A stretch of 13,429 bases of DNA from positions 1 through 13,429 of the forward strand of contig JAAZAB010000165.1 of NCBI GenBank assembly GCA_012514555.1, read 5' to 3'. The first letter of the stretch is position 1. Each line of letters starts with the position of its first letter. Made by a program: the position numbers and the translations under genes. The notes below the pieces were generated by a model. That model ran no database searches. It had not been told where the DNA came from and saw only the letters and a list, made by a program, of their open reading frames with translations. Below are positions 1-13,429 of this stretch, piece after piece. This DNA comes from Lentisphaerota bacterium (GTDB lineage: Bacteria; Verrucomicrobiota; Kiritimatiellia; JAAZAB01).

Positions 1-138
1 CGCACTTGACCCTATATGGAGCAGTTCAGAGCAATCGAATATCCAATATCCAACAAGGAACTTCCAACATTCATCGGAATCCTTGGAATATTCCGTGTTG
101 GCTGTGAGGCGCTTTGGTTCAGCGGTGATGCAATCCGG

Positions 139-190
139 CTTCTGTAGCGCGCCACGGCGTGGCGCGATTTGCCGCGAACGTTCGGCGGCC
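139..190. repeat. 52-bp repeat element, copy 1, with an internal GC-rich palindrome (CGCGCCACG-G-CGTGGCGCG, 9-bp arms); the + strand RNA would read hairpin followed by AUUUG
   Basis: Positions 139-190 equal the reverse complement of 4378-4429 with 3 mismatches (49/52). The 36-bp core (139-174) is identical. The palindrome could form a stable stem-loop, so this is a REP-like or terminator-like element. Confidence 0.6.
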
Positions 191-434
191 GGGCCCATTC
201 TTCGCCGAAGCGGCTTTGAAGGGCAAGCCGTCCGTCCTCTAGGCGGACGGCCTCGGCCGCCGACGATATAGCCATGTCTCTCGCGGAAGGCGCAAAGGGA
301 TAGTTTGACTGTCCCCAGACACCATTCACTCAGGCAGAAGATAACTTGGAAATCAGGAAAGCAGGAAGGAAATTGCCCCTGCCTTCTCTCTTTTCCTGAT
401 GTTCCTGATTTCCTCATTCAACCCTTATGGACAC

Positions 435-524
435 TATCCCCTAGCTCCTATCCCCTATCCCCTAGCTCCTATCCCCTATCCCCTAGCTCCTATCCCCTAT
501 CCCCTCTATCCTATCCCCTCGTCC
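435..524. repeat. Tandem heptamer array of ~13 units (TATCCCC x9, TAGCTCC x3, plus degenerate TCTATCC / TCGTCC) with a 21-bp higher-order unit TATCCCCTATCCCCTAGCTCC (x3)
   Basis: Read directly from the sequence: the pattern is TATCCCC TAGCTCC TATCCCC TATCCCC TAGCTCC ... from 435. It continues straight into the right inverted repeat, which itself contains TGGATAT x2. Two ORF-track entries (305..571, 399..584) simply translate this repeat as PLAPIPY. Confidence 0.8.
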
Positions 525-557
525 TTGGATATTGGATATTCGATTGCTCTTTCTCGG

Positions 558-591
558 TTGACTTCCCCTGATTCCACGGCATAATGCCGTG
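558..591 (+). promoter_or_regulatory. Candidate sigma70-type promoter TTGACT(558-563)-N16-CATAAT(580-585) for the NfeD-flotillin operon, overlapped by a 17-bp perfect palindrome CACGGCAT-A-ATGCCGTG (575-591), a possible operator
   Basis: The -35 matches consensus at 5/6 and the -10 at 5/6, with 16-17 nt spacing. The palindrome arms are perfectly complementary over 8 bp. The element sits ~90 nt upstream of the 681 ATG. Confidence 0.35.
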
Positions 592-680
592 CATTGCGCT
601 TTATATTGCCCTTACGCCCGCGCGCGGATGACGCAGGATAAGGCGCAGCGCCAAGGACGGACAAAACCGGAGAAAACGCC

Positions 681-1289
681 ATGGAAACACTGGGCGCCTG
701 GTGGAACGGGCTGGGAACCGTGAACCAATGGTTTTACGGCGTGGCCTTCTTTTTCGGCGCGATCTTTCTGTGGCAGATGATCATGTCATTCATCGGCCTG
801 GAACATGACGTGGGGCTTGACACCCAGGTCGAGCCCGACTCAGTTCACGATACGCCGGACGACGCCACCCAGACCCTGGCGGCTTTCAAATTAATCAGCA
901 TCCGCTCAATCCTGGCCTTTCTGACGCTCTTCTCCTGGGGCGGCGCATTGTACCTCAATCAAGGCCTGCCCATGGGCCGCGCCCTGGGCTACTCCATTCT
1001 GTGGGGCCTGGCAGCCATGCTGGCGGTTTCTTTTATCTTCAGCCTGATGGGCAGAATGACGGAGTCCGGAAACATAAAAATCGGCTCTTGCCTGGGCGTC
1101 AACACCACTGTTTATCTCGACATTCCAGCCGGAGGCGTGGGAGAAATACGCGTCCCTTGCAGCGGAGTCATGACCCACATCAAGGCGCGCTCCGCAAAAG
1201 GCGACGCCATAAAGGCAGGCACGCCCGTCAAGGTTGTGCGCCTGGTGGAATCCAACACCGTTGAAGTCGAAACTGTCGAAGCCGGATAG
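681..1289 (+). CDS. NfeD-like membrane protein (YuaF/YqiJ family): N-terminal transmembrane helices plus a C-terminal OB-fold beta-barrel, the usual partner of flotillin/SPFH proteins
   Basis: 202 aa. There are hydrophobic helices (GVAFFFGAIFLWQMIMSFIGL, ILAFLTLFSWGGALYL, ILWGLAAMLAVSFIFSLMG) and then a soluble C-terminus (VYLDIPAGGVGEIRVPCSGVMTHIKARSAKGDAIKAGTPVKVVRLVESNTVEV) typical of the NfeD short form. A GGAGA RBS lies 7 nt before the ATG, and the gene sits immediately upstream of a flotillin gene. Confidence 0.75.
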   Translation: METLGAWWNGLGTVNQWFYGVAFFFGAIFLWQMIMSFIGLEHDVGLDTQVEPDSVHDTPDDATQTLAAFKLISIRSILAFLTLFSWGGALYLNQGLPMGRALGYSILWGLAAMLAVSFIFSLMGRMTESGNIKIGSCLGVNTTVYLDIPAGGVGEIRVPCSGVMTHIKARSAKGDAIKAGTPVKVVRLVESNTVEVETVEAG

Positions 1290-2920: not shown

Positions 2921-3072
2921 TGCGGTTCAACCCAGATTAGCGTTTGAAAAATGAACTATACTTACTACGGGCTGGGAGTATGTCAATACGCCTTCACCCG
3001 CTGCGCCTTGCATCTGCCGCACTCTGACCAATCGCAAAATCCGGGTTCCAAGGCCGCGGACGGCAGGCCCGA

Positions 3073-4317: not shown

Positions 4318-4377
4318 CGCTCTCCCCCAGCCTGTGCCGCCATCCAACCCGTCAAAACAAGGAGGGCGCACGGCCTC

Positions 4378-4429
4378 GGCCGCCGGACATGCGCGGCAAA
4401 TCGCGCCACGCCGTGGCGCGCTACAGAAG
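4378..4429. terminator. 52-bp repeat element, copy 2 (inverted relative to copy 1), between the convergent MFS and tad-like operon 3' ends; the - strand RNA would read GC-rich hairpin + AUUUG, a likely bidirectional or operon terminator
   Basis: The 36-bp core CGGCAAATCGCGCCACGCCGTGGCGCGCTACAGAAG (4394-4429) is the reverse complement of 139-174. The palindrome CGCGCCACG-C-CGTGGCGCG lies at 4403-4421. It sits in the 135-bp gap between the MFS stop (4317) and the ATPase stop (4453). Confidence 0.5.
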
Positions 4430-4452
4430 GCAAGGCGGGCGCGCATCCGGCT

Positions 4453-5541
4453 TCAGGCGCGCTCATCGGCCCATGGCTCGGGCAGGTTGAGGCGCCTGGC
4501 CTCTTCGGCGAAGCGCGGCGTTGCGCCGGTGAAAACGTGATGCCCGGCCACCTTTCCATCGGGCGCGAGGCCTTCGGGCCTGAAGACATAAATATCCTGC
4601 ATTTTATAGACGCCCTCCTCGAGCCCGAGGACCTCGGAAATATGCGTTATTTTGCGGGAGCCGTCGGAGAGGCGGGCGGTCTGGATAATCACGCCGATCG
4701 CGCCTGCGACCATGGCGCGGACAGCCGGCATGGGGATGTCAATCCCGCTCAGGAGCGTGCAGGTTTCGAGGCGCGAGAGCGTGTCCAGGGGCGTGTTCGC
4801 ATGAATGGTGGACATGCTCCCGGCATGGCCAGTGTTGAGCGCCTCGAGCAGGTCCAGAGCCTCTCCGCCCCGCACCTCGCCGATCACCAGCCGGTCCGGG
4901 CGCAGGCGCAGGGCCGCTATGAGCAGGTCGCGTATCGTGACCTCGCCCTTGCCGTCCTTGTCGGGCTTTCGCGTCTCGAAGCGCACGGTGTGCGGCTGCT
5001 GGAGTTGAAGTTCGCTGGCGTCCTCGATAACCAGGATGCGTTCGCCCGGGTCTATGATGCCGCTGAGCACGTTCAGGACCGAGGTTTTTCCCGACGAGGT
5101 GGCGCCGGAAACGACAAGGTTCTTGTGGAGCCGGACGATGGTCTCGATCAGGCGCACACCGCCTTCCGAAATGCTGCCGAACCTGACAAGCTCGGCAGGC
5201 GTCAGCTTCTCCTTTCTGAACTTGCGTATGGAAACCACCGTTCCGGTCCGAGACAGCGGGGGTATGACGGCCTCGAGGCGGGAGCCGTCCGGCAGGCGCG
5301 CTTCGAGAATGGGGTTTTCCTCGCCGAGCATGCGGCCGACGCTCCGGGCAACGTTCATGGCGGCCGCTCGCAGCGCGTTCTCGCTGCAGAAGCAGGCATT
5401 GGTGCTCTCGATCCGGCCCCGCCGCTCCACGTAGATTCGGTCCGGGCCATTGATCATTATTTCCGAGACATCAGGATCGTCAAGGAACGGCGCAATCGGC
5501 TCGAAGAAAAGATACAGGAATGCATTCGGATCGGTTGGCAT
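4453..5541 (-). CDS. Short CpaF/TadA/VirB11-family secretion ATPase (N2 + C-terminal ATPase domains only, no N-terminal extension); the second ATPase of the operon
   Basis: 362 aa. Walker A is GATSSGKTS, the Asp box/Walker B are [12 protein letters not shown] and [13 protein letters not shown], and the His box is [13 protein letters not shown]. The N-terminal [22 protein letters not shown] is the typical start of the CpaF N2 domain. An AGGGGA RBS lies 8 nt upstream, and only 10 nt separate it from the upstream gene stop. Confidence 0.85.
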
Positions 5542-5551
5542 CGAGTTTCCC

Positions 5552-7444
5552 CTATTTGCTCAAAAACGGCTTTTCACGGCTTGGAATGACTTCCTCGCCG
5601 CCGGCCGGAAAACTGCCCTTGCCCCGGCCGCCCGCCTGTTCGGACGGCTGCGCAGGGGCAGCCGCCCGGCCCGGGGCTGATTCTCCGCCTTTGGGCGCCT
5701 GGTCCTTGGCCGCCGGAGCCGCCGGAGCGGGCTGCGCCGGGAGAATGGAAGCGCCGCTTTTGAGACGCCGGTCGATCACGGCCCGGGCGTCCTGTTCGGC
5801 AGGCAGGAGCGCGCGCAGTTCCTTGAGGCGTTTCCGGGCCATGGCGGCATACTGGTCCGAGGATGAGGCCACATCGAGAATCTGCATGTAAAGGGCGGCC
5901 GCGTCGCGAACGGAGCCGCGCGACTCGAGCACATAGGCTTTGTTGAAGGCTGTCCCGGTAAAAGCGGCGATGTCCATGCGCAGCCGCGCAAACTCGGCAT
6001 CATGCCCGGGTGACCCGGCGGCAAAGCCGGCGATCAGGAGACTTTTCAGCGCTCGGCTGTTCAGCCTGGCCGCCTCGTAGAGCTCGCCGCGCGCCTTGGC
6101 CGCGGCGGCGTCCGCCATCGCTTTCCGGCCATCCTGCTCGTATTCCTCACGGCCGGGGCCCAGGCGCTTGCGAAGATCGTCCATTCTGGCCAACGCGATC
6201 GTCCTGGCGCCGGGATAGTTCCGGAACGCCGGAGAATCCAGGAGAGCGGTCCCGGCCTCGATGGCCGCGACGTCATTGCTTTGCGCCAGAAGCGCGTCCA
6301 GCGCGGCAGCCTGGGCCAGTAGATTCCCGCGGGCGGCGAGGTCGGCTTTCTGGGAGAAGGACAAGCCGGCCTGCGCCGCCAGGCCAGAGCACACGGACTG
6401 CGCGTCCGGTATCCGCCAGGCATTGAACATGTCATCGGCCTGCTTGAACTGGCCGGCAAGCTCAATCTGGCGCCCGGCCAGGCTGACCAGGTCCTGGCGC
6501 TTGTACTCGTTCAACACCTTCGCGCCGTCAAGAACGGAGAGAACGTCGGCATATCGGGCCTGTTGAAGAAATGCGGCGGCCTTTTCGCAGGCCTCCTCGC
6601 CGCGGAGGTAGGCTTCGAATTCCGACACCTGGCCGTCCGCGGGCGACATTGTCTTCATGCGCTCCAGCGCGCGCCGGGCGCGGGGGATGTCGCCGCTGTC
6701 AATGCACTCCATGCCTTCGGCAAAAGCCTCCTGCATGTGCGCGCCCCGGATTGCGCGCAGGAGGCCGAGCGCCTGAGTATTGCGCGGGTCCAGCGCGACC
6801 GACTCGTTCAACAGGGCCGCGGCCGCCAGGTAATCGTTGCTTGCATAAAGCGCATACTGCCCCTGCTGCATCAGCTGCGCGGCGCGGCGATAGATGTCGG
6901 CCCTGCCATTCAGGGCGGACCCCTCGCCGGGGCCGGGGCCGGCCGGGGCGTTGGACTCCGCGTTAAGCGCCGGAGCAGGCCCGGCCGCCGGGCTGTCGTC
7001 CGCCTGCGGCCGGGCTCTCTTCAACATCCAAGCGGCCAGGGTCGCCAGGCACAGGACAAGGAGAACGGCAACGAGCATCTTGTTCCTGGATCCGGGCGCG
7101 GCCGCGCCGACCGCTCCCTCGTGCGCCGGCACGATGAAGTTGAAATCTCCCAGCGCGACCTGTTTTCCGGGCCGGAGATTCGCTTCGCGCCGGGCAAGCC
7201 GGCGCCCATCCACCTGCACGCCGTTCACGCTGCCAAGGTCGCGGATGTAAAGGCCCCGGGGCGTGAGCGCAAGCTCGGCGTGCCTTGGCGCAAGCGAAGG
7301 GGAATCCAGGCAAAAGTCGCAGAGCGCATCGCGGCCGAGAACGCGCGGCTTGCCGCCGAGAGGCAACTCCAACTCAAGGACGTCGGAGCCGTCGCGGCGC
7401 TTCAGCGCAATTTTCAGGGAAGGCACAAGGTTTTCTTCATTCAC
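5552..7444 (-). CDS. Bitopic membrane protein: N-terminal cytoplasmic FHA domain, single TM helix, large periplasmic Ala-rich TPR-like repeat domain
   Basis: 630 aa. The FHA signature is RVLGRDALCDFCLDSPSLAPRHAELALTPRGLYIRDLGSVNGVQVDGRRLARREANLRPGKQVALGDFNF (the GR...SR-H...S-NG...GD pattern). The TM helix is MLVAVLLVLCLATLAAWML. The C-terminal ~480 aa are helical and Ala/Leu-rich with TPR-like periodicity (AAALLNESVALDPRNTQALGLLRAI..., AAFLQQARYADVLSVL...). A GGAG RBS is present. Confidence 0.7.
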   Translation of the reverse strand: MNEENLVPSLKIALKRRDGSDVLELELPLGGKPRVLGRDALCDFCLDSPSLAPRHAELALTPRGLYIRDLGSVNGVQVDGRRLARREANLRPGKQVALGDFNFIVPAHEGAVGAAAPGSRNKMLVAVLLVLCLATLAAWMLKRARPQADDSPAAGPAPALNAESNAPAGPGPGEGSALNGRADIYRRAAQLMQQGQYALYASNDYLAAAALLNESVALDPRNTQALGLLRAIRGAHMQEAFAEGMECIDSGDIPRARRALERMKTMSPADGQVSEFEAYLRGEEACEKAAAFLQQARYADVLSVLDGAKVLNEYKRQDLVSLAGRQIELAGQFKQADDMFNAWRIPDAQSVCSGLAAQAGLSFSQKADLAARGNLLAQAAALDALLAQSNDVAAIEAGTALLDSPAFRNYPGARTIALARMDDLRKRLGPGREEYEQDGRKAMADAAAAKARGELYEAARLNSRALKSLLIAGFAAGSPGHDAEFARLRMDIAAFTGTAFNKAYVLESRGSVRDAAALYMQILDVASSSDQYAAMARKRLKELRALLPAEQDARAVIDRRLKSGASILPAQPAPAAPAAKDQAPKGGESAPGRAAAPAQPSEQAGGRGKGSFPAGGEEVIPSREKPFLSK

Positions 7445-7462
7445 AGGTTCGGCTCCGCTCGA

Positions 7463-8491
7463 TCAGGGGTTGAATCTCACCCGTTCCGCCTCGTCCCATT
7501 TCCGGGCCCCGTACTTGAACTGCCATGAATTGCGGTCCGGGAACAGGCGCATGATGCAGTCTGCCGCATCGAAGGCATCCGGCTTGTTTCCAAGCCCGAG
7601 CGCCTGTTCCAGGCGTCGGCGCTGGCGGTAGAAAGTTTCCTCGCGGAAGAAGAAGCACAACTGCATCTGCGCCAGGGCCGCATCATATTCGGCGGGCCTC
7701 GGGTCCCGGCGGTATGTGGCGGCCAGCGCCGCGGCGTACTGCTGCATGGCGCCGTTGTAGTAATTCACGTTGGAGTCGCGCCCCATGAGAAGTTCATTAC
7801 CGTAGCGGATGGCGTTGGCGACATCGTTGCTTGTCGCAAGGGCCGGAAGCCGCCGAACAAAGGATTCCCCCGCCAGCCTGGCGTCCTGCAAAGGCGCAAT
7901 GGAAACGCCCTTGATGAAGCCGTCGAACAAGTCCGGACCGTTCGTCAAGGCCGCGGGAAAGACGAACAGGAACCTGTAGGAGTCCGTTTCGTTTTTGACG
8001 ACCAGGCCCAGGACGGCCATCTTTGCAGTGTCGCCCGAGAACCTGACGGCCGGGCATCCGAAAAGGTTGGTTGGCGCCCTGTCCAGGAGCACGAACCCGG
8101 GATAGACAAGCCGCGCGCTGCTTTGAAAATTATCCACCTCGGTGTCCATGTCCAGGAGGCAGCGGCAGGGGTCGCGGTTCGCGTCATAGAACATCGTCGC
8201 CTCTGTTCCGGGGCACTCGAACTGGCGCTTGGCCAGCATGCTGAGGGACTCCATCTGCACCCAGCCCGGCGGCATCCGGATAACGGCGGCGAACTCGCTG
8301 TCCTCGTACAAGTCCGGAGTTTTTTTTGCGGAATCGCGGCAGCCGGCGCTTCCGGCGGCCGCGAGCGCGAGCAGAAGCGCGGGCGCCAGGCGCATTATAA
8401 AATCCGGCAGGCGCATCCCGCGCCCGGATCCGTCCGACGGCATGAGCGCGCGCGGGGCGCCGGGCAATTCCGTATCAGGGCTCATTATCAT
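7463..8491 (-). CDS. Putative lipoprotein of unknown function (lipobox LAAAGSAGC); start codon uncertain (internal ATGs at 8416 and 8395 give a cleaner signal peptide)
   Basis: 342 aa in the longest ORF. MRLAPALLLALAAAGSAGC fits a type-II signal peptide with a lipobox Cys. I recognise no conserved domain. The gene is tightly packed in the operon, 18-19 nt from each neighbour. Confidence 0.55.
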   Translation of the reverse strand: MIMSPDTELPGAPRALMPSDGSGRGMRLPDFIMRLAPALLLALAAAGSAGCRDSAKKTPDLYEDSEFAAVIRMPPGWVQMESLSMLAKRQFECPGTEATMFYDANRDPCRCLLDMDTEVDNFQSSARLVYPGFVLLDRAPTNLFGCPAVRFSGDTAKMAVLGLVVKNETDSYRFLFVFPAALTNGPDLFDGFIKGVSIAPLQDARLAGESFVRRLPALATSNDVANAIRYGNELLMGRDSNVNYYNGAMQQYAAALAATYRRDPRPAEYDAALAQMQLCFFFREETFYRQRRRLEQALGLGNKPDAFDAADCIMRLFPDRNSWQFKYGARKWDEAERVRFNP

Positions 8492-8510
8492 TCATCCTCC
8501 TGTCCCGGCG

Positions 8511-8858
8511 TCATTCGATCAGCCTCAGAGCGTCGCCGATGGCCAGCGCCCAGCGCGACAGCGAGCCGGCCGCGGTTTCCAGCGTATGCCGCCCGCCGGG
8601 GTCCCCGCAGACGAGCATGCGCCATGGCTTCAGGTTTTCCGCCAGCCCGGCAACGCGCCATTCAGCGTCGAGAAATATCACGTCTATGGGCATGCGCATG
8701 AAAAACGTGTGTATGGCGCGGCAGTCCGGGAAGAACATGCCCTCGCCCGGCTCCAGCCCAACCCGGCCCATCAGGCCGCGCATGCGTTTGCGCAGGCTGA
8801 ACGCGCCGGCCACGCCGGTCAGCAGCACCCGCCCTGTTGTTGCATGCTCAAGGATCAT
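8511..8858 (-). CDS. DUF192 (UPF0127/COG1430) family protein
   Basis: 115 aa. Family-typical motifs are GLMGR, GMFF, IHTFFMRMPIDVIFLD and TLETAAG. The size and order of the motifs match DUF192. Confidence 0.7.
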   Translation of the reverse strand: MILEHATTGRVLLTGVAGAFSLRKRMRGLMGRVGLEPGEGMFFPDCRAIHTFFMRMPIDVIFLDAEWRVAGLAENLKPWRMLVCGDPGGRHTLETAAGSLSRWALAIGDALRLIE

Positions 8859-8870
8859 ATTGGCCCAGTG

Positions 8871-9794
8871 TCATTGGTTCATGTAGTACTGGATCATGAC
8901 AGGCCCGATCAGCATGATCAGGATTGACGGAAAGATGCAGCTTAGCAGGGGCAGCAGCATTTTGACGGGCGCTTCCATCGCCAGCTTTTCCACATATTGC
9001 GCCTTGCGCTCCCGGAACTCGCGGGCCTGGATGCGAAGGAGCGGGCCGAGCTCCGTGCCCAGTTCCTCGGCCTGGGTCATCATGTCGATTGTCACGGTAA
9101 TCGGCTCAATGCCTATGCGCCTGGCCATGTCCTTCATGGCATTGACGCGCCGCGCGCCGAGGTGGATTTCGTTGAGCAGGCGCATCAGCTCCTCCGAGAG
9201 CGGGCTCAGCGGAATGTTGCCCACGATCCGCTGGATCGCTATGGTCATGTCCATTCCGGATTCCATGGACAGCGTCAGCAGATCGAGAAAAAATGGCCAG
9301 TCGGACAGAATCTGGCGCCGGCGCGCGGCCCGGGCATTGTCGAGCGGCAGCACGGGAAAGAAGAAGGCCGCAAGGGCCAGGATGGCGACAAAGAGCAGGC
9401 CCGAGCCCAGGTCGGACTCCCGCTCGTGCGCGCGCTGGAAAACGAAGAGCAATGCCGCGCCGAGCGCGCCGGAGCCCAGCGCAAGAACGAACTGCAGCGA
9501 AACCATCTCCTCGGGCGTGAGAGCGGTGTCCACGCCGGCCTGGCGCAGCCGCGTGCGCATTCCGCGCACGAGGGCGTTATCCGCGCCAAGAACCCTGTTG
9601 AGGAGCCGCGTCATTCCGTGCAGCAGGGGTGTGATCCAGAGCATCCAGCCCACGCGCTTGCGCCGGTATTGCGACAGGAACATCCCGTAGCCTTCCATGC
9701 GCTTTGCCAGGAGCGAATAGGCCAGCATGACGGTGGCCGCGAAAAGCAGGATCAAGCCCAGCGTCATTTCATTGAACAATTCGCTCATGCCCAC
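8871..9794 (-). CDS. tadC: Tad/Flp platform protein TadC-like (GspF/T2SSF family, polytopic inner-membrane protein)
   Basis: 307 aa. It has an N-terminal TM helix, a cytoplasmic T2SSF domain (TLSMESGMDMTIAIQRIVGNIPLSPLSEELMRLLNEIHLG...), and C-terminal TM helices (LLPLLSCIFPSILIMLIGPVMI). It starts 6 nt after the tadB stop. Confidence 0.8.
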   Translation of the reverse strand: MGMSELFNEMTLGLILLFAATVMLAYSLLAKRMEGYGMFLSQYRRKRVGWMLWITPLLHGMTRLLNRVLGADNALVRGMRTRLRQAGVDTALTPEEMVSLQFVLALGSGALGAALLFVFQRAHERESDLGSGLLFVAILALAAFFFPVLPLDNARAARRRQILSDWPFFLDLLTLSMESGMDMTIAIQRIVGNIPLSPLSEELMRLLNEIHLGARRVNAMKDMARRIGIEPITVTIDMMTQAEELGTELGPLLRIQAREFRERKAQYVEKLAMEAPVKMLLPLLSCIFPSILIMLIGPVMIQYYMNQ

Positions 9795-9800
9795 CCCGGC

Positions 9801-10664
9801 CTAAAGACGAATGGATACTATCTTGCGGATCATGAAGAACCCGATAACGTCAAGCACCACGACTGCCGCCAGCATGGCCCAGCCCATCATTGTAGTGTAC
9901 ATCAGCCGCATCAACTCCGGGTTGATGAAATGGATGATGATGCCCAGGGCCACGGGAATAAGCACCACGATGATGGCCTGGAGTTTGCCCTGGCTTGTCA
10001 GGGCCTTGATCTTGCCGTCTATCCGGTTGCGCTCGCGTATCGTGTCGCTGAGCTGGCCGAAGACCACCGGCAGTTCGCCGCCGGTCTGTATCGTCAGGCG
10101 GACCGCGGCGACGAGAAGCATCAGGTCCGCGTCGTTCAGGCGCTTGTTCATGTTTTCAAGGGCTTCCTCGATGCGCACGCCGAGGTTGATCTCGCGCACG
10201 GTAAGCCGGAACTCCTGCCCGGCCGGGTCCGGGAGCTGGCGCGCGGCCAGGTCAAGAGCCTGGAGAAAAGAAAAGCCGCTGCGCAGTCCGTTGCTGATGG
10301 TGTTCATTGCGGCGATGAGCTGGGAATTGAACTTCTCACGGCGCCGGGCGACCTTCATGTGAATGAGAATGTCCGGGATGAACGCGCCAATGCCGGCGGC
10401 CGCGGCGGCCAGGATAAAAGGGACGGGGCGCATGAGGCCGGACGACACGACGAGCGCGATGACGCCCAGCAGGAAGGCCGATATCACCTTCATATGCATC
10501 AGGCGCTCCACGGGAATGAACGAGGCGCCCTGCTGGATCAGCTCGGCCGTGCGGCCAAGGTAACGCTCCTCGTACTCGCCATAGCCGCCCGCAAGCGAGC
10601 GGAGCAGGAGAAAAAACAGCAGGCTGACCGAGATGAACGAGACCGCTAGAATTACTGCCAGCAT
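9801..10664 (-). CDS. tadB: Tad/Flp platform protein TadB-like (GspF/T2SSF family); the real start is at the ATG at 10664, not the longer track ORF reaching 10874
   Basis: 287 aa from MLAVILAVSFISVSLLFFLLL. The T2SSF domain is FSFLQALDLAARQLPDPAGQEFRLTVREINLGVRIEEALENM...LTIQTGGELPVVFGQLSDTIRERNR. A GGGGA RBS lies 7 nt upstream. The longer ORF-track version overlaps the upstream ATPase gene in another frame. Confidence 0.8.
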   Translation of the reverse strand: MLAVILAVSFISVSLLFFLLLRSLAGGYGEYEERYLGRTAELIQQGASFIPVERLMHMKVISAFLLGVIALVVSSGLMRPVPFILAAAAAGIGAFIPDILIHMKVARRREKFNSQLIAAMNTISNGLRSGFSFLQALDLAARQLPDPAGQEFRLTVREINLGVRIEEALENMNKRLNDADLMLLVAAVRLTIQTGGELPVVFGQLSDTIRERNRIDGKIKALTSQGKLQAIIVVLIPVALGIIIHFINPELMRLMYTTMMGWAMLAAVVVLDVIGFFMIRKIVSIRL

Positions 10665-10680
10665 GTCGGAATCCCCGCGC

Positions 10681-12306
10681 TCATTTGACGACGAAAATGC
10701 CCATGTCCACGTCCACGCCCCGCTCGCGCAGGCGCATGATGAAGTTCGGGATCGTGCCCGTGGGCTGGAATTCGCCCACAACCCGGCCCTCGGCGTCGTA
10801 GCCCGACTGGCGGAACTCGAATATGTCCTGGAGCGCGATCTCTCCGCCCCCGGCCATGGGCAGCACCTCGGCAATGGCCATGACCTTTCTTGAGCCGTCC
10901 GAAAGGCGCGAGACCTGGCAGACCAGGTTCACGGCCGCCCCGATCTGCTGGCGGATGGCGGCCACGGGCAAATCCATTCCCGACATCAGCACCAGCGTTT
11001 CAAGGCGGGCCATCACATCCTTCGGCGAGTTCGCGTGCACGGTGGTGAGCGACCCGTCATGCCCCGTGTTCATGGCCTGCAGCATGTCAAGGGCCTCCCC
11101 GCCGCGGCACTCGCCGACAACTATGCGGTCGGGCCGCATGCGCAGCGCGTTCCGGACGAGCGTGCGTATGGAAATCTCGCCCTTGCCTTCGATGTTCGGC
11201 GGGCGCGCCTCCATGCGCACCACGTGCTCCTGGTCAAGGCGCAGCTCCGCGGCGTCCTCGATGGTCACGATGCGCTCGGCGCGCGGAATGAACGAGGACG
11301 CGATGTTGAGGAGCGTTGTCTTGCCGGAGCCGGTGCCGCCCGAGATGACCGTGTTCTGCCTGCGCTCGACCGCGATCCTGAGAAAAGCCGCCATCGCGGG
11401 GCTGAGCGTCTTGAACCCCACCAGGTCCTCCATCGTCAGCGGCTTTGCGGGGAACTTGCGGATGTCGAGGGATGCGCCGTCAATGGCCACGGGCGATATC
11501 ACCGCGTTCACCCTGAAACCGTCCGGAAGGCGCGCGTCAACGATCGGGGAGCTTTCGTCAATGCGCCGCCCGAGCGGGCCCACGATGCGCTCGATGATGG
11601 CCTCGAGCTGGCCGGGGCTGTCAAACTTGCGGTTCGAGGGCGCAAGCCTGCCCCTGCGCTCGACAAAAATCCTGTTCCGGCCGAAGCACATTATCTCCGT
11701 GATCTCCGGGTCGTTGATCAGGTCGTCGAGCGGGCCGAAGCCGAGCACGTCGTGCACGACCTCCTTCTGAAGCACATCGGCCGCGACGCCCTGGCGCTCG
11801 GCCTCGGCGCTCAGCTCGCCGATTATTTCGCCGATGAGCTTGCGGGCTCGCTGCCTGAGCTCCAGGGATGCCGCGGCGCCAATGGTGTCGAGGCTCTTGA
11901 GGTCCATCCGGTCGAGCAGTATCTCGTGAACCTTGCGCTTGAGCTGCTCGCGGGCGCCCGCGTTCTCCCCGATATCCGGCCTGGCGGCGGCGGCGGCATC
12001 CTCGACGTCGGACGCCTCCTCGAAGTAGATCATGTTCCATTCGCCGACGGTCAGCTTGTCGCCATTGTGCAGGCGCTGCTCGCGGCCGGCCACCGGGAGG
12101 CCGTTCACGGAAACGGGATGGCGCGAGGACACCGGCTGGACATAAAGCCAGCCGCGCACGTTCAGCACTCGGCAATGCATGCCGGCGACACCCTTTGCCG
12201 GGAGGCGAAGGTCGCAGGAGGACGACGACCCGACCGTGACGAACTCCCTGGTTTTCAGGAAAGACAGGTCCGTCTGCGTTCCGTCGGCATGGAGAAGGTA
12301 AATCAC
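10681..12306 (-). CDS. cpaF: CpaF/TadA-family secretion ATPase with an N-terminal FHA domain fused in place of the usual N-terminal extension; probable GTG start at 12306
   Basis: The FHA-like region is VIYLLHADGTQTDLSFLKTREFVTVGSSSSCDLRLPAKGVAGMHCRVLNVRGWLYVQPVSSRHPVSVNGLPVAGREQRLHNGDKLTVGEW. The CpaF N-terminal helical region follows (EQLKRKVHEILLDRMDLKSLD). Walker A is GGTGSGKTT, Walker B is DRIVVGECRGGEA, and the His box is TGHDGSLTTVHAN. The track ORF (to 12498) overlaps the secretin gene. The GTG at 12306 has a GGTGGTG RBS ~7 nt upstream and leaves a 25-nt gap after the secretin stop. Confidence 0.85.
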   Translation of the reverse strand: MIYLLHADGTQTDLSFLKTREFVTVGSSSSCDLRLPAKGVAGMHCRVLNVRGWLYVQPVSSRHPVSVNGLPVAGREQRLHNGDKLTVGEWNMIYFEEASDVEDAAAAARPDIGENAGAREQLKRKVHEILLDRMDLKSLDTIGAAASLELRQRARKLIGEIIGELSAEAERQGVAADVLQKEVVHDVLGFGPLDDLINDPEITEIMCFGRNRIFVERRGRLAPSNRKFDSPGQLEAIIERIVGPLGRRIDESSPIVDARLPDGFRVNAVISPVAIDGASLDIRKFPAKPLTMEDLVGFKTLSPAMAAFLRIAVERRQNTVISGGTGSGKTTLLNIASSFIPRAERIVTIEDAAELRLDQEHVVRMEARPPNIEGKGEISIRTLVRNALRMRPDRIVVGECRGGEALDMLQAMNTGHDGSLTTVHANSPKDVMARLETLVLMSGMDLPVAAIRQQIGAAVNLVCQVSRLSDGSRKVMAIAEVLPMAGGGEIALQDIFEFRQSGYDAEGRVVGEFQPTGTIPNFIMRLRERGVDVDMGIFVVK

Positions 12307-12331
12307 GTTTTCACCACCACTGTTCCGCCAG

Positions 12332-13429
12332 TTACCAGATGCGGTACAATTTCGGACGCTTCCGGGGCTTTGCGCCGGCCTTGGGCCGGGGCGCCTCGGG
12401 CGCCTGGTACACGCCGGTGCGCATTTCCTCAAGGTAGGCGTCGACCCGGGGCTGAACGTCCCGCGGAATGGGCGCGGGCGCCCGGGCGCCGAACTCATCC
12501 GGCGTGAGCGCCGACAGAATCCGCGGCGTCACGATGGCCAACAACTGAGTGTCCTCGTCCTTCCTGCTCTTGGAGCCGAAAATCCAGTCCAGAACCGGGA
12601 GATCGCCGAGGATTGGGCTGCGGGACTTGTAGAAGTTCTTCATGTTCTCGAGCAGCCCGGAAAGCACTATGCTCTGCCCGACCTGGCAAACCACGGTGCA
12701 CTCGGTTTCGAACTTGTCGAGGTTGAGCTGCTCGCTCCCGGACTTGGCCGTGGGTATGGACACCGTGATCTTCATCGTGTTAAGGATTTCCTTCTCGCTC
12801 ACGAAAGAGGGCCGGACCTCGAGCTGGACGCCGTACTCCACGTTCTTCATGTCCGCGGCCTGGACGCCCGAGACCTCGTAGTAGTATTCGCCCCCGGACA
12901 GGAACTTGCCGGCCTCGTTGTTCTTGGTGCACAGGCGGGGATGCGCGAGGATGGTCGCGTTGCCTTCATCCATCAGCACCTTGAGCTGCGGCGCGATCTG
13001 GGCGGACCAGGTCAGCGTAACGTCCATGGCGCTGTAGTCGGCATCCTTGCGGGTCTGCTGGCCCTGGACGCCGCCGTTCAGGATCAGGCCCTGCCCGCCG
13101 TCGAGCAGGTTGACGCCGATGTCGAACCCGCTGCTCTTCGTGACTTTCAGGAACATGATCTCGGTTTCGATCATGACGTCCCGAACCGAGAGCATGTCCA
13201 CCACGTTCGCCACCTGGGTCCGCGCAAGGCTCAGCACGTTCGACCGCTGGCTGTTGCCGAACACGAACCCGGAAATAAAGGCGGTCTGGCCGACGAGGTT
13301 GATCTTGACGGTTTCCACGCCGGCCGTGCGCCGGATGAAATCGGCAATCACCTCGTTTGACGGGCCGCTGTCGAAAACCGCGAGGTTGACCACCACGTCC
13401 GAGAACGCGGCCGCGATTTTCTGAACGCG
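12332..13429 (-). CDS. cpaC: Secretin (CpaC/RcpA/GspD family), C-terminal secretin domain plus part of the N-domains; the N-terminus lies beyond the window end
   Basis: It carries the canonical secretin C-terminal signature ILGDLPVLDWIFGSKSRKDEDTQLLAIVTPRIL, preceded by VEYGVQLEVRPSF...KITVSIPTAKSGSEQ. The reading frame is open to the window edge. A Pro/Lys-rich basic C-terminal tail (PRPKAGAKPRKRPKLYRIW) follows the secretin motif. Confidence 0.85.
   Translation of the reverse strand, partial: RVQKIAAAFSDVVVNLAVFDSGPSNEVIADFIRRTAGVETVKINLVGQTAFISGFVFGNSQRSNVLSLARTQVANVVDMLSVRDVMIETEIMFLKVTKSSGFDIGVNLLDGGQGLILNGGVQGQQTRKDADYSAMDVTLTWSAQIAPQLKVLMDEGNATILAHPRLCTKNNEAGKFLSGGEYYYEVSGVQAADMKNVEYGVQLEVRPSFVSEKEILNTMKITVSIPTAKSGSEQLNLDKFETECTVVCQVGQSIVLSGLLENMKNFYKSRSPILGDLPVLDWIFGSKSRKDEDTQLLAIVTPRILSALTPDEFGARAPAPIPRDVQPRVDAYLEEMRTGVYQAPEAPRPKAGAKPRKRPKLYRIW

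What the first reader, a model, noticed from the sequence alone, without database searches (positions are those of the whole stretch)
28..550. MITE-like or iteron-like cassette bounded by perfect 26-bp inverted repeats
Exact 26-bp terminal inverted repeats ~470 bp apart enclose low-GC, non-coding DNA. That DNA carries a heptamer/21-bp direct-repeat array and a REP-like palindrome. This architecture (TIRs, no transposase, AT-richer core) fits a miniature inverted-repeat element. Alternatively, 21-bp direct repeats spaced at two helical turns, next to a purine/AT-rich stretch (340-430), resemble iteron-type replicator or partition sites, or a multi-site regulator-binding region in front of the NfeD-flotillin operon.
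Basis: seen in the sequence. Interest (0 to 1): 0.55.

Follow-up and report, generated by a model that had tools for sequence, protein, structure and literature searches.

The report
Mosaic cluster of dispersed hairpin repeats
The "26-bp terminal inverted repeats" are the identical head sequences of two different members of an abundant family of short intergenic hairpin and heptamer repeats that happen to face each other, so this is an ordinary pile-up of repeats upstream of the NfeD-flotillin operon, not one transposable cassette, replication origin or DNA switch.

Summary
There is a perfect 26-bp inverted repeat (28-53 / 525-550), a 7/21-bp CTATCCC array (434-519) and a GTAG-tagged REP palindrome (144-166).

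The interpretation needs changing. The 26-mer is the conserved "head" of a multicopy repeat family. It occurs exactly in 36 metagenome contigs, 20 of them from one assembly, always once per contig and often at contig ends. It also occurs in an Omnitrophota MAG.

Every part of window 28-566 is tiled by modules that recur elsewhere separately, in other orders and orientations. The window holds element "A" (28 to ~320, + strand) and element "B" (566 to 325, - strand), tail to tail. Other loci have A then B, or B then A, in tandem.

- The 523-bp composite never recurs as a unit.
- There is no target-site duplication, internal promoter, recombinase or Rep gene.
- No inverted variant was seen.
- The 21-bp array varies in copy number between samples.
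- Relatives with 78-79% flotillin identity lack the cluster.

The closest known kinds are BIME/REP mosaics and intergenic heptamer repeats (Xanthomonas GGGAATC, Nostoc GGGGAYT, TAACTGA).

One oddity remains. The heptamer core (ATCGAATATCCAATATCCAA) occurs exactly in at least 67 genome stretches from about nine phyla.

The parts
28..53 (+). Head of element A, the left arm of the 26-bp inverted repeat: AGAGCAATCGAATATCCAATATCCAA, containing 2.9 copies of heptamer ATCCAAT
   Evidence: The exact 26-mer is present in 36 metagenome contigs.
28..124 (+). Module M1: head plus an imperfect hairpin (CCAACAAGGAAC..GGAATATTCCGTGTTGG). It is the most abundant unit of the family.
   Evidence: More than 40 BLAST copies at 87-100% identity. 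Copies are listed.
28..318 (+). Element A as a whole (modules M1, M2, M3, M4). The 28-195 or 28-247 part recurs as a block with different upstream flanks.
   Evidence: L105 matches 28-247 at 93%. L089, L093 and L103 match 28-195 at 94-96%. L090 and L108 match at 86-88%. L104 and L097 cover 242-318.
144..166 (+). Module M2: GTAG-tagged REP palindrome (GTAG + CGCGCCAC GGC GTGGCGCG)
   Evidence: Sequence. Separate copies occur in L037, L079, L098, L101, L102, L089 and L105. A second copy lies in the window at 4402-4424(-).
176..262 (+). Module M3 region: GC-rich compound hairpin (GGCGGCCGGGCCC...). Copies occur in both orientations elsewhere.
   Evidence: Fold is -54.4 kcal/mol, z = -4.6. Copies are in L037, L082, L093, L096, L098 and L104. 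An IS110-family unit abuts the start of this module in L080, L082 and L101.
325..566 (-). Element B, read on the minus strand: flank TCAACCGAGAA, then head, then GGACGAGGGGATAGG... heptamer array, then hairpin M5. It recurs as a block in L030.
   Evidence: L030 16-240 matches window 566-325 (76% over 244 nt). Parts match in L082, L090 and L037.
325..424 (+). Module M5: hairpin GGAAATCAGGAA...TTCCTGATTTCC. In other loci it usually lies directly next to a head.
   Evidence: About 11 copies at 85-91% identity (L030, L081, L087, L088, L092, L099, L101, L104, L106).
434..519 (+). Module M6: tandem array, 21-bp period (CTATCCC CTAGCTC CTATCCC) x 4.1. The + strand is C-rich and G-poor. The - strand carries 8 GGGG runs.
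   Evidence: Contig L003 from another sample has one 21-bp unit fewer.
525..550 (-). Head of element B, the right arm of the inverted repeat
   Evidence: Identity to L037 runs for 30 nt, over 525-554.
551..566 (-). Family-typical 5' flank of the head (minus strand TCAACCGAGAA; family consensus TTNANCCTRGAA). This is the right-hand limit of repeat-derived DNA.
   Evidence: Position counts over 36 copies are. BLAST coverage ends at 559-566.
558..585 (+). Sigma-70-like promoter for nfeD (TTGACT-16-CATAAT). It lies outside the inverted repeat, but its -35 overlaps the outer end of element B.
   Evidence: 10 of 12 matches, and the only site found in 1-800.
2929..3047 (.). Further family repeat in the flotillin-MFS intergenic region
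   Evidence: L089 matches at 97% over 69 nt and L091 at 95% over 78 nt.
4361..4438 (-). Further family repeats, including the second GTAG-REP copy (4402-4424), between convergent genes

Best explanation
Window 28-566 is a pile-up of short interspersed intergenic repeats, a BIME-like mosaic, in a PVC-group MAG that NCBI labels 'Lentisphaerae bacterium'.

Two composite members of one repeat family lie tail to tail:
- Element A (28 to ~320, + strand): head, hairpin M1, GTAG-REP M2, GC-rich hairpin M3, then M4.
- Element B (566 to 325, - strand): head, (GGGGATA)n heptamer array, then hairpin M5.

Both begin with the same conserved head of about 38 nt, (TTNANCCTRGAA)-AGAGCAATCGAATATCCAATATCCAA.

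Shown here:
- The head is multicopy.
- The modules recur independently, in other orders and orientations.
- The heptamer array changes copy number between samples.
- The cluster is absent from the nearest available relatives.

Inferred:
- The heptamer tracts grow and shrink by replication slippage.
- The units are dispersed by a trans-acting activity that was not identified. No target-site duplication is made, which resembles REP/REPIN spread more than DDE-type MITE spread.
- The cluster has no dedicated function at this locus. It probably acts as transcriptional punctuation between the unknown upstream gene and the nfeD promoter, through stable hairpins and an 86-nt C-rich, G-poor, rut-like tract on the + strand transcript.
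- The outer end of element B supplies part of the -35 box.
For: 1. The exact 26-mer is found in 36 metagenome contigs. Twenty come from assembly JAEAME01. It occurs once per contig and often at a contig end.
2. A 5' flank TTNANCCTRGAA is conserved in 32-36 of 36 copies, with no conservation further upstream.
3. BLAST of window 1-700 against these contigs and the Omnitrophota MAG loci L030 and L037 tiles all of 28-566 with at least 2 copies per position. Nothing matches 1-27 or beyond 566.
4. The order of A and B differs between loci. L090 has gene stop, then A, then B in direct orientation. L030 has B then A in direct orientation. The window has A and B convergent.
5. B-type and A-type bodies, and at least six other bodies, follow the same head.
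6. Canonical short members are about 105-nt hairpins with z about -6.
7. The array is a VNTR. L003 lacks one 21-bp unit but has the same orientation.
8. Other intergenic regions of the window carry family repeats, including a second GTAG-REP between convergent genes.
9. In at least 9 of 36 loci a long co-oriented ORF ends 5-36 nt before the head.
10. Relatives with 78-79% flotillin identity have only 121-253 bp upstream of the nfeD-like gene and no heptamer heads in 35 kb.
11. Precedents exist in the literature. Intergenic heptamer repeats have been described close to the stop codon of the upstream ORF, often as convergent pairs, length-variable and G4-forming (PMC4692102). The same heptamer has been found shared across phyla (PMC4679880).
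Against: - No mobilising enzyme was found. No RAYT/Y1 transposase appeared among the 25 Pfam families listed for the 95 ORFs of repeat-bearing contigs; that listing showed only the 25 most-matched of 94 families. The only transposase seen was an IS110-family one.
- No true empty site in a close strain was available. The relatives compared are distant, and their upstream gene differs.
- No intrinsic terminator is predicted in 1-800, so the 'punctuation' role is pure inference.
- The left head lacks the canonical 5' flank (consensus against window 17-27).
- A perfect 26/26 match between two copies could also reflect a functional pairing.
- My gene calls for context statistics are crude. By them, 16 upstream neighbours are co-oriented and 11 are divergent.
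Confidence: 0.8

Rival explanations
1. It is a genuine ~523-bp MITE. The two 26-bp arms are the ends recognised by one transposase, and the unit moves as a whole.
For: The 26-bp inverted repeat is perfect, there is no transposase inside, the size is small, and the arm sequence is multicopy. A 3-bp TTC flanks both arms (sequence). One short family member (L084) is a symmetric ~105-nt hairpin with head-like arms on both sides. The window could therefore be such an element swollen by nested insertions.
Against: None of the other 36 contigs has two copies of the 26-mer. The composite is not found as a unit. The arms head different bodies that occur alone. The right-hand TTC is simply part of the family's head flank (GAA on the other strand), and the left flank is non-canonical, so the 3-bp 'duplication' is not convincing. 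No cognate TIR-bearing transposase was seen.
Confidence: 0.06
2. It is an invertible DNA switch (inverton). A recombinase flips 54-524 between the inverted repeats and changes expression of the nfeD-flotillin operon or of the unknown upstream gene.
For: The architecture fits: perfect inverted repeats flank ~470 bp of non-coding DNA directly upstream of an operon. Four independent Logan contigs start exactly at 524/525, the inner edge of the right arm, as expected for a graph branch there.
Against: The contig breaks are explained without inversion. The 30 nt at 525-554 are identical to another family copy (L037), which is enough to branch a k=31 graph; that k is from my own knowledge of how Logan contigs were built. 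The only two contigs that cross the arm (L003, L007) have the window's orientation. No sigma-70-like promoter lies inside the segment; the one promoter is outside. No recombinase is in the 13.4 kb. The arms belong to a dispersed repeat.
Confidence: 0.05
3. It is a locus-specific protein-binding region: iterons of a replicon or partition site, or a multi-site operator for the nfeD operon.
For: There are direct repeats with a 21-bp period, two helical turns. TATCC-type motifs occur in both arms and in the array. The region lies just upstream of the operon promoter.
Against: The same heptamer units and heads occur next to unrelated genes on dozens of contigs. Array copy number varies between samples. 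No Rep, ParA, ParB or regulator gene is in the window. No DnaA box lies in 1-700. There is no match in plasmid or phage collections. Relatives' nfeD operons lack it.
Confidence: 0.03
4. The units are transcribed RNA elements: small RNAs or 3'-UTR elements whose repeated GGA / GGAUA motifs or heptamers titrate an RNA-binding protein such as CsrA, a cold-shock protein or S1.
For: GGA motifs are dense on the minus strand of 325-550. The hairpins are stable. Heads are often placed just after stop codons. The same candidate proteins were proposed for TAACTGA heptamer repeats (PMC4679880).
Against: There is no Rfam match in the window or in 27 related loci. No convincing promoter or terminator belongs to the units. 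No expression data are available. Elements occur in both orientations relative to genes.
Confidence: 0.08

Closest known systems
BIMEs / REP and REPIN elements of proteobacteria (GTAG-tagged REPs; PMC3733652, PMC3116915)
   Same: These are short extragenic palindromes present in many copies, clustered in mosaics with other conserved motifs in variable order and orientation. They make no target-site duplication and favour the 3' side of genes and convergent intergenic regions. Module M2 here has the defining GTAG tag plus a GC-rich palindrome (window 144-166; second copy at 4402-4424).
   Different: No RAYT gene was found, though the contigs are short. The dominant unit here is not a GC-rich REP but an AT-richer hairpin built from 7-nt repeats with an asymmetric, conserved single-stranded 5' flank. 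The host is an uncultivated PVC-group bacterium.
Intergenic heptameric simple-sequence repeats: Xanthomonas GGGAATC and Nostoc/Anabaena GGGGA(T/C)T (PMC4692102), cyanobacterial STRR heptamers, TAACTGA repeats of Beggiatoaceae/Cyanobacteria/Bacteroidetes (PMC4679880)
   Same: They are tandem 7-nt units in intergenic DNA at many loci and vary in length between strains. They often sit within tens of nt of the upstream ORF's stop and are often found as convergent pairs that form inverted repeats. Their G-rich versions can form G-quadruplexes; the window's (GGGGATA)n is one base away from Nostoc's GGGGATT. The same heptamer is shared by distant phyla with no known mechanism.
   Different: The unit sequences differ (AATATCC / CTATCCC). 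Here the heptamers are embedded in larger conserved units (head plus body) that are themselves dispersed. G4 formation was not tested here.
MITEs (e.g. Correia, Nezha, the P. gingivalis MITE with internal minisatellite, PMC4596501)
   Same: Both are small, non-coding, hairpin-forming and multicopy, have terminal inverted repeats, and can carry an internal minisatellite.
   Different: The composite does not recur. There is no target-site duplication and no related transposase with matching TIRs. The two arms belong to different units.
Invertons (fimS-type and Bacteroides-type invertible promoters)
   Same: Inverted repeats flank a few hundred bp directly upstream of an operon.
   Different: There is no internal promoter, no nearby recombinase and no second orientation observed, and the inverted-repeat sequence is a dispersed repeat.

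Membership tests
MITE | Terminal inverted repeats bounding a short non-coding unit without a transposase | tested here: met
   26/26 inverted repeat 471 bp apart. The ORFs inside are repeat-built. 12-329(-) has no Pfam hit, and none of the three internal ORFs is on record as a gene product.
MITE | Direct target-site duplication flanking the TIRs | tested here: not met
   The flanks are GGAGCAGTTC|...|TTCTCGGTTG. Only a 3-bp TTC is shared, and on the right it is part of the family's conserved head flank.
MITE | The whole unit is repeated at other sites | tested here: not met
   The 36 metagenome contigs each hold a single 26-mer. BLAST finds only separate modules. A and B are arranged differently in L030 and L090.
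MITE | TIRs match those of an autonomous IS in the same genome | not testable with these tools
   The source MAG is not available as a whole. The only transposase seen on repeat-bearing contigs is IS110-family, which has no TIRs.
REP / BIME | 20-40-nt GC-rich imperfect palindrome with a 5' GTAG (or CGTC) tag | tested here: met
   Window 144-166 is GTAG+CGCGCCACGGCGTGGCGCG. A second copy lies at 4402-4424(-).
REP / BIME | Many extragenic copies, clustered with other motifs in variable order and orientation | tested here: met
   M2 copies occur in L037, L079, L089, L098, L101, L102 and L105. The mosaic tiling is and the variable order.
REP / BIME | Cognate RAYT (Y1 HUH transposase) in the genome | tested here: inconclusive
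   None appears among the 25 most-matched of the 94 Pfam families found for 95 ORFs from 38 short contigs. The genome itself was not searchable.
Intergenic heptameric SSR families | Tandem 7-nt units in intergenic DNA at many loci | tested here: met
   TRF periods are 7/14/21 at 434-519 and 7 at 34-53 and 525-544. Arrays occur in most of the 67 genome loci and in the metagenome loci.
Intergenic heptameric SSR families | Copy-number polymorphism between strains | tested here: met
   L003 has 3.1 units of 21 bp against 4.1 in the window. Heads carry 1 to more than 5 heptamers among copies.
Intergenic heptameric SSR families | Bias to the 3' side of genes; convergent pairs forming inverted repeats | tested here: inconclusive
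   With crude ORF calls, the cross-phylum loci split into 14 convergent, 23 tandem and 2 divergent contexts, and many sites lie 1-30 nt after an ORF end. About 29 of 67 have a paired inverted array. For the 26-mer family, 16 upstream neighbours are co-oriented and 11 divergent.
Inverton | Both orientations present in a population | tested here: inconclusive
   Only two independent contigs cross an arm, and both match the window's orientation. The contig breaks at 525 have another explanation.
Inverton | Promoter (or other directional signal) inside the invertible segment, and a site-specific recombinase | tested here: not met
   No sigma-70-like site lies inside 54-524. There is no recombinase domain in the nine main window ORFs scanned. 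DNA upstream of position 1 does not exist in the contig.
Iteron-type origin / partition site | Adjacent Rep/Par gene, DnaA boxes or an AT-rich unwinding element, and repeats specific to the replicon | tested here: not met
   No such genes are present. No DnaA box lies in 1-700. The repeats are dispersed over many contigs. There are no plasmid or phage matches.

The most novel reading that the evidence does not exclude
The heptamer core of the arms is not just a lineage-specific repeat. The exact 20-mer ATCGAATATCCAATATCCAA occurs in at least 67 stretches of species-representative genomes labelled as roughly nine phyla, and up to 28-45 nt (…CAACAAGGAATATCCAA…) is shared in PVC, Gemmatimonadota and Thermodesulfobacteriota genomes. 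The motif usually forms the arms of ~60-170-nt hairpins whose centres are unrelated. The most novel reading is that this is an undescribed family of tiny hairpin elements spanning many phyla. Such a family would either spread horizontally or be held constant by a conserved host protein that reads (AATATCC)n. The window's 'heads' would then be a derivative of it.
Probability: 0.2. Interest if true: 0.65.

Novelty: new member of a known kind. Interest (0 to 1): 0.3.

Why it matters
For this locus it matters little. The feature is selfish or neutral repeat DNA that inflates one intergenic region, breaks metagenome assemblies (the contig itself ends at it) and may incidentally terminate or insulate transcription ahead of the nfeD-flotillin operon.

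It is useful as a warning. A perfect long inverted repeat in a MAG can be two copies of a dispersed repeat rather than a transposon or a switch, and contig ends at such repeats mimic inversion signals.

The wider point is that the same heptamer-based hairpin arm is conserved to the base across many uncultivated phyla. That adds a striking case to the unexplained phenomenon of shared intergenic heptamer repeats, and it gives a concrete probe sequence for finding the factor that creates or reads them.

Tried and rejected
- **Rfam.** Searches of the window (gathering threshold, and E-value mode on 1-700) and of 27 related loci found only chance-level miRNA/CRISPR-DR hits and one unrelated tRNA. 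There are no tRNA or tmRNA genes in the window.
- **Inversion signal.** I first read the four Logan contigs starting at 524/525 as evidence for inversion. I rejected this after finding a 30-nt identity to another family copy that would branch a k=31 graph.
- **Looking for the inverted junction or upstream DNA through called small ORFs.** ORFs 12-329(-), 506-682(-) and 399-584(+) are not on record.
- **Protein-guided metagenome scan with NfeD.** It found no confirmed locus.
- **Promoter reading of the head** (TTNANC -35 plus a heptamer -10). No acceptable -10 exists at 15-18 bp spacing (inspection). A sigma-54 reading fails on spacing.
- **DnaA-box or oriC reading.** No boxes lie in 1-700.
- **Literature search for the heptamer string itself.** No papers matched.
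- **Plasmid and phage collections.** No match. The viral contig scan gave only 2 hits, both ordinary heptamer hairpins.
- **Search for a large TIR-bounded autonomous element among 67 genome loci.** Arrays pair only over about 150 nt or less.
- **Covariation analysis of M1.** Not pursued, because the copies are too similar to be informative.
Full report
**1. The observation**

- The arms 28-53 and 525-550 are a perfect 26-nt inverted repeat with 471 nt between them. They are the only two matches in the 13.4-kb window even with 3 mismatches allowed, and no shuffle gave any match.
- A tandem array with a 21-bp period (CTATCCC CTAGCTC CTATCCC, 4.1 copies) occupies 434-519.
- GTAG at 144-147 is followed by the palindrome CGCGCCAC-GGC-GTGGCGCG at 148-166.
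- The 340-430 stretch is an imperfect hairpin: 348-359 pairs with 402-413.
- Two details need correcting. GC is 66% in 101-300 and drops to about 49-51% only in 300-600. The arms themselves contain 2.9 copies of a heptamer.
- The region 1-600 folds much better than shuffles, with z = -8.1.

**2. Surroundings**

- Downstream lie an NfeD-like gene without a Pfam hit (681-1289), a flotillin (1346-2920) and an MFS transporter. After these come secretion/pilus-type genes on the minus strand: T2SSE ATPases with FHA domains and a secretin.
- The only sigma-70-like promoter in 1-800, TTGACT-16-CATAAT at 558-585, lies outside the right arm.
- The flotillin is 100% identical to a protein that NCBI labels 'MAG: Lentisphaerae bacterium', whose longest contig is 13,429 bp. 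The window is therefore a complete contig that stops 27 bp outside the left arm, and nothing upstream can be inspected.

**3. The arms are copies of a dispersed repeat**

- The exact 26-mer occurs in 36 metagenome contigs from digester and activated-sludge samples. Twenty come from one assembly (JAEAME01). It occurs once per contig and often at a contig end.
- Aligned on the 26-mer, the copies share a 5' flank, TTNANCCTRGAA, conserved in 32-36 of 36 sequences. Conservation stops at about -13.
- Downstream of the 26-mer the copies fall into several classes:
  - CAAGGAAC..., as at the window's left arm;
  - GGACGAGGGGATAGG... or CAAGGAGGGGATAGG..., as at the window's right arm read on the minus strand;
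  - at least six others.
- The window's right arm has the canonical flank (TCAACCGAGAA on the minus strand, 551-561). The left arm does not.

**4. The interior is a mosaic**

BLAST of window 1-700 against these contigs and two loci of an Omnitrophota MAG (L030, L037) covers every position of 28-566 with at least 2 copies. Nothing matches 1-27 or beyond 566. The modules are:

| Module | Window coordinates | Notes |
|---|---|---|
| M1 | 28-124 | head plus hairpin; more than 40 copies |
| M1 long block | 28-195 or 28-247 | L089, L093, L103 and L105 at 93-96% |
| M2 | GTAG-REP, 144-166 | separate copies in seven loci |
| M3 | 183-247 | copies in both orientations |
| M4 | 249-318 | |
| M5 | 325-424 | hairpin; about 11 copies |
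| M6 | 434-520 | heptamer array |
| M7 | 488-566 | head plus start of the array, on the minus strand |

- L030 16-240 matches the reverse complement of window 325-566 as one block, so head, array and M5 form a unit, 'B'.
- Window 28-247 likewise recurs as a unit, 'A'.
- Their relative arrangement differs between loci. L090 has a gene stop, then A, then B in direct orientation. L030 has B then A in direct orientation. The window has A and B convergent, with heads outward.
- The '26-bp TIRs' are therefore the heads of two different elements.
- Canonical short members (L084, L080) are ~105-nt hairpins with z about -6.
- Other intergenic regions of the window also carry family repeats, at 2929-3047 and 4361-4438. 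The latter includes a second GTAG-REP between convergent genes.

**5.

MITE:
- No target-site duplication is present. Only TTC is shared by the two flanks, and on the right it belongs to the head flank.
- The composite never recurs.
- No TIR-type transposase was seen.
- The 25 most-matched of the 94 Pfam families found for the 95 ORFs on repeat-bearing contigs include no RAYT. They include only a 99.7-100% identical IS110-family transposase in three contigs and one reverse transcriptase.

Iteron, origin or partition site:
- The repeats are dispersed rather than specific to one locus.
- No Rep or Par genes are present.
- No DnaA box lies in 1-700.
- There are no plasmid or phage matches.

Locus-specific operator:
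- This is unlikely for the same reason, because the units are dispersed.
- In addition, the array differs by one 21-bp unit in another sample, L003.

**6. The inverton idea**

- I raised this reading myself, because four Logan contigs start exactly at 524/525.
- That break is explained by the 30-nt identity of 525-554 to another family copy. Such an identity branches a k=31 de Bruijn graph; the value of k is from my own knowledge.
- The two contigs that cross the arm have the window's orientation.
- No promoter lies inside the segment, and no recombinase is in the window.
- The idea is not excluded, because reads could not be examined.

**7. Relatives**

- Loci with 78-79% identical flotillin (L114, L115, L116) have an nfeD-like gene preceded by only 121-253 bp and a divergent gene. 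They have no heptamer heads in 35 kb.
- The cluster is therefore an addition in this lineage. These relatives are too distant, and too different in synteny, to count as an 'empty site'.

**8. What it most likely is and does**

Shown:
- It is a BIME-like pile-up of dispersed hairpin, REP and heptamer repeats.
- One heptamer array is a VNTR.

Inferred:
- The heptamers change by slippage.
- The units spread by an unidentified trans-acting activity without making duplications, which is REP/REPIN-like.
- At this site the stack of hairpins, plus an 86-nt C-rich, G-poor tract on the + strand (GC skew -0.44 to -0.51), would tend to stop read-through from upstream before the nfeD promoter.
- The -35 of that promoter overlaps the outer end of element B.
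- The minus strand of the array has eight GGGG runs. It resembles the G4-forming GGGGATT repeats of Nostoc (PMC4692102).

**9. Comparison with known systems**

- Closest are BIME/REP/REPIN systems (PMC3733652, PMC3116915).
- Equally close are intergenic heptameric repeats. In Xanthomonas these lie about 28 nt after the upstream ORF, often as convergent pairs, and vary in length (PMC4692102).
- TAACTGA repeats are shared by Beggiatoaceae, Cyanobacteria and Bacteroidetes with no known transfer mechanism (PMC4679880).
- This is a new member of that kind, in uncultivated PVC bacteria.

**10. The unexpected part**

- The 20-mer core ATCGAATATCCAATATCCAA occurs exactly in at least 67 stretches of species-representative genomes. 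My arithmetic for chance expectation in 596 Gb on both strands is about 1.
- The records are labelled Chloroflexota, Bacteroidota, Gemmatimonadota, Verrucomicrobiota/Kiritimatiellia/Lentisphaeria, Planctomycetota, Omnitrophota, Armatimonadota, Cloacimonadota and Desulfobacterota/Thermodesulfobacteriota. Several genomes carry more than one copy.
- None of the 67 is labelled Proteobacteria, Firmicutes or Actinobacteria.
- Only the 34-45-nt arm is conserved between phyla. The centres and flanks are unrelated.
- About 29 of 67 have a paired inverted array within about 150 nt.
- With crude ORF calls, the sites avoid divergent intergenic regions: 2 of 39.
- No paper in the library contains the string.
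- Whether this reflects horizontal spread or a conserved reader protein is open.

**11. Verdict**

- The MITE, iteron and regulator interpretation is only partly supported: the DNA is multicopy and repeat-derived, but it is not one element.
- The locus itself is ordinary and scores low.
- The cross-phylum heptamer hairpin motif is the one thing worth following up.

Noticed in passing
L009-L075 (genome loci), e.g. L017 3100-3260, L062 260-390, L032 1780-1880: The 20-mer ATCGAATATCCAATATCCAA occurs exactly in at least 67 stretches from genomes labelled as about nine phyla. It usually forms arms of 60-170-nt hairpins made of 7-nt repeats, and only the arm is conserved between phyla. None of the listed genomes is labelled Proteobacteria, Firmicutes or Actinobacteria.
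   Followed up: partly
L082 139-1684; L080 172-1534; L101 503-2048: A ~1.5-kb unit encodes a 371-aa IS110-family (DEDD) transposase. It is 99.7-100% identical in three contigs with different outer flanks. Each copy starts at GGCGGCCGGGGCC, the beginning of repeat module M3, which suggests an IS110 element that targets this repeat.
   Followed up: partly
window 1-27: The window is an entire 13,429-bp contig of an NCBI MAG labelled 'Lentisphaerae bacterium'. It ends 27 bp outside the left arm, so the assembly broke at the repeat cluster. Many related contigs also end at the 26-mer.
   Followed up: yes
window 6-21 and 417-432: There is a direct repeat, TTGACCCTATATGGAG versus TTCAACCCTTATGGAC. 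One copy lies just before the left head and the other lies between hairpin M5 and the heptamer array. It was found only in the window and looks like a variant of the family's head flank. It remains unexplained.
   Followed up: partly
window 558-591: The nfeD promoter-like site is TTGACT (558-563) and CATAAT (580-585). A 17-nt palindrome, CACGGCAT-A-ATGCCGTG (575-591), lies across the -10 and is a candidate operator unrelated to the repeats.
   Followed up: no
window 434-519 versus L003: The 21-bp array has 4.1 copies in the window and one unit fewer in an ENA contig from another sample. That contig also differs by one SNP at window 129.
   Followed up: yes
window 2929-3047 and 4361-4438: Two other intergenic regions of the contig carry repeats of the same family. 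The second GTAG-REP (4402-4424, minus strand) lies between the convergent MFS and ATPase genes.
   Followed up: partly
L115 4310-4350 / L116 1000-1040: In relatives, the short region upstream of the nfeD-like gene holds a different tandem repeat (TCTCGTTCCA x 3) rather than heptamer heads.
   Followed up: no
L103 585-2007: A reverse-transcriptase ORF (RVT_1, YADD motif) lies on the opposite strand about 130 nt beyond the part of element A that matches the window. It may be a group II intron inserted next to the repeat. Rfam gave no intron hit.
   Followed up: partly
window 4453-13396: A minus-strand cluster encodes two T2SSE-type ATPases, an FHA-domain protein and a secretin. One of the ATPases itself carries an FHA domain. 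This looks like a pilus/secretion system and is not related to the finding.
   Followed up: no
L076 6540-6618; L077 1233-1311: Only two of 2.9 million viral contigs contain the 20-mer. Both show the usual (GGATATT)n-loop-(AATATCY)n hairpin.
   Followed up: partly
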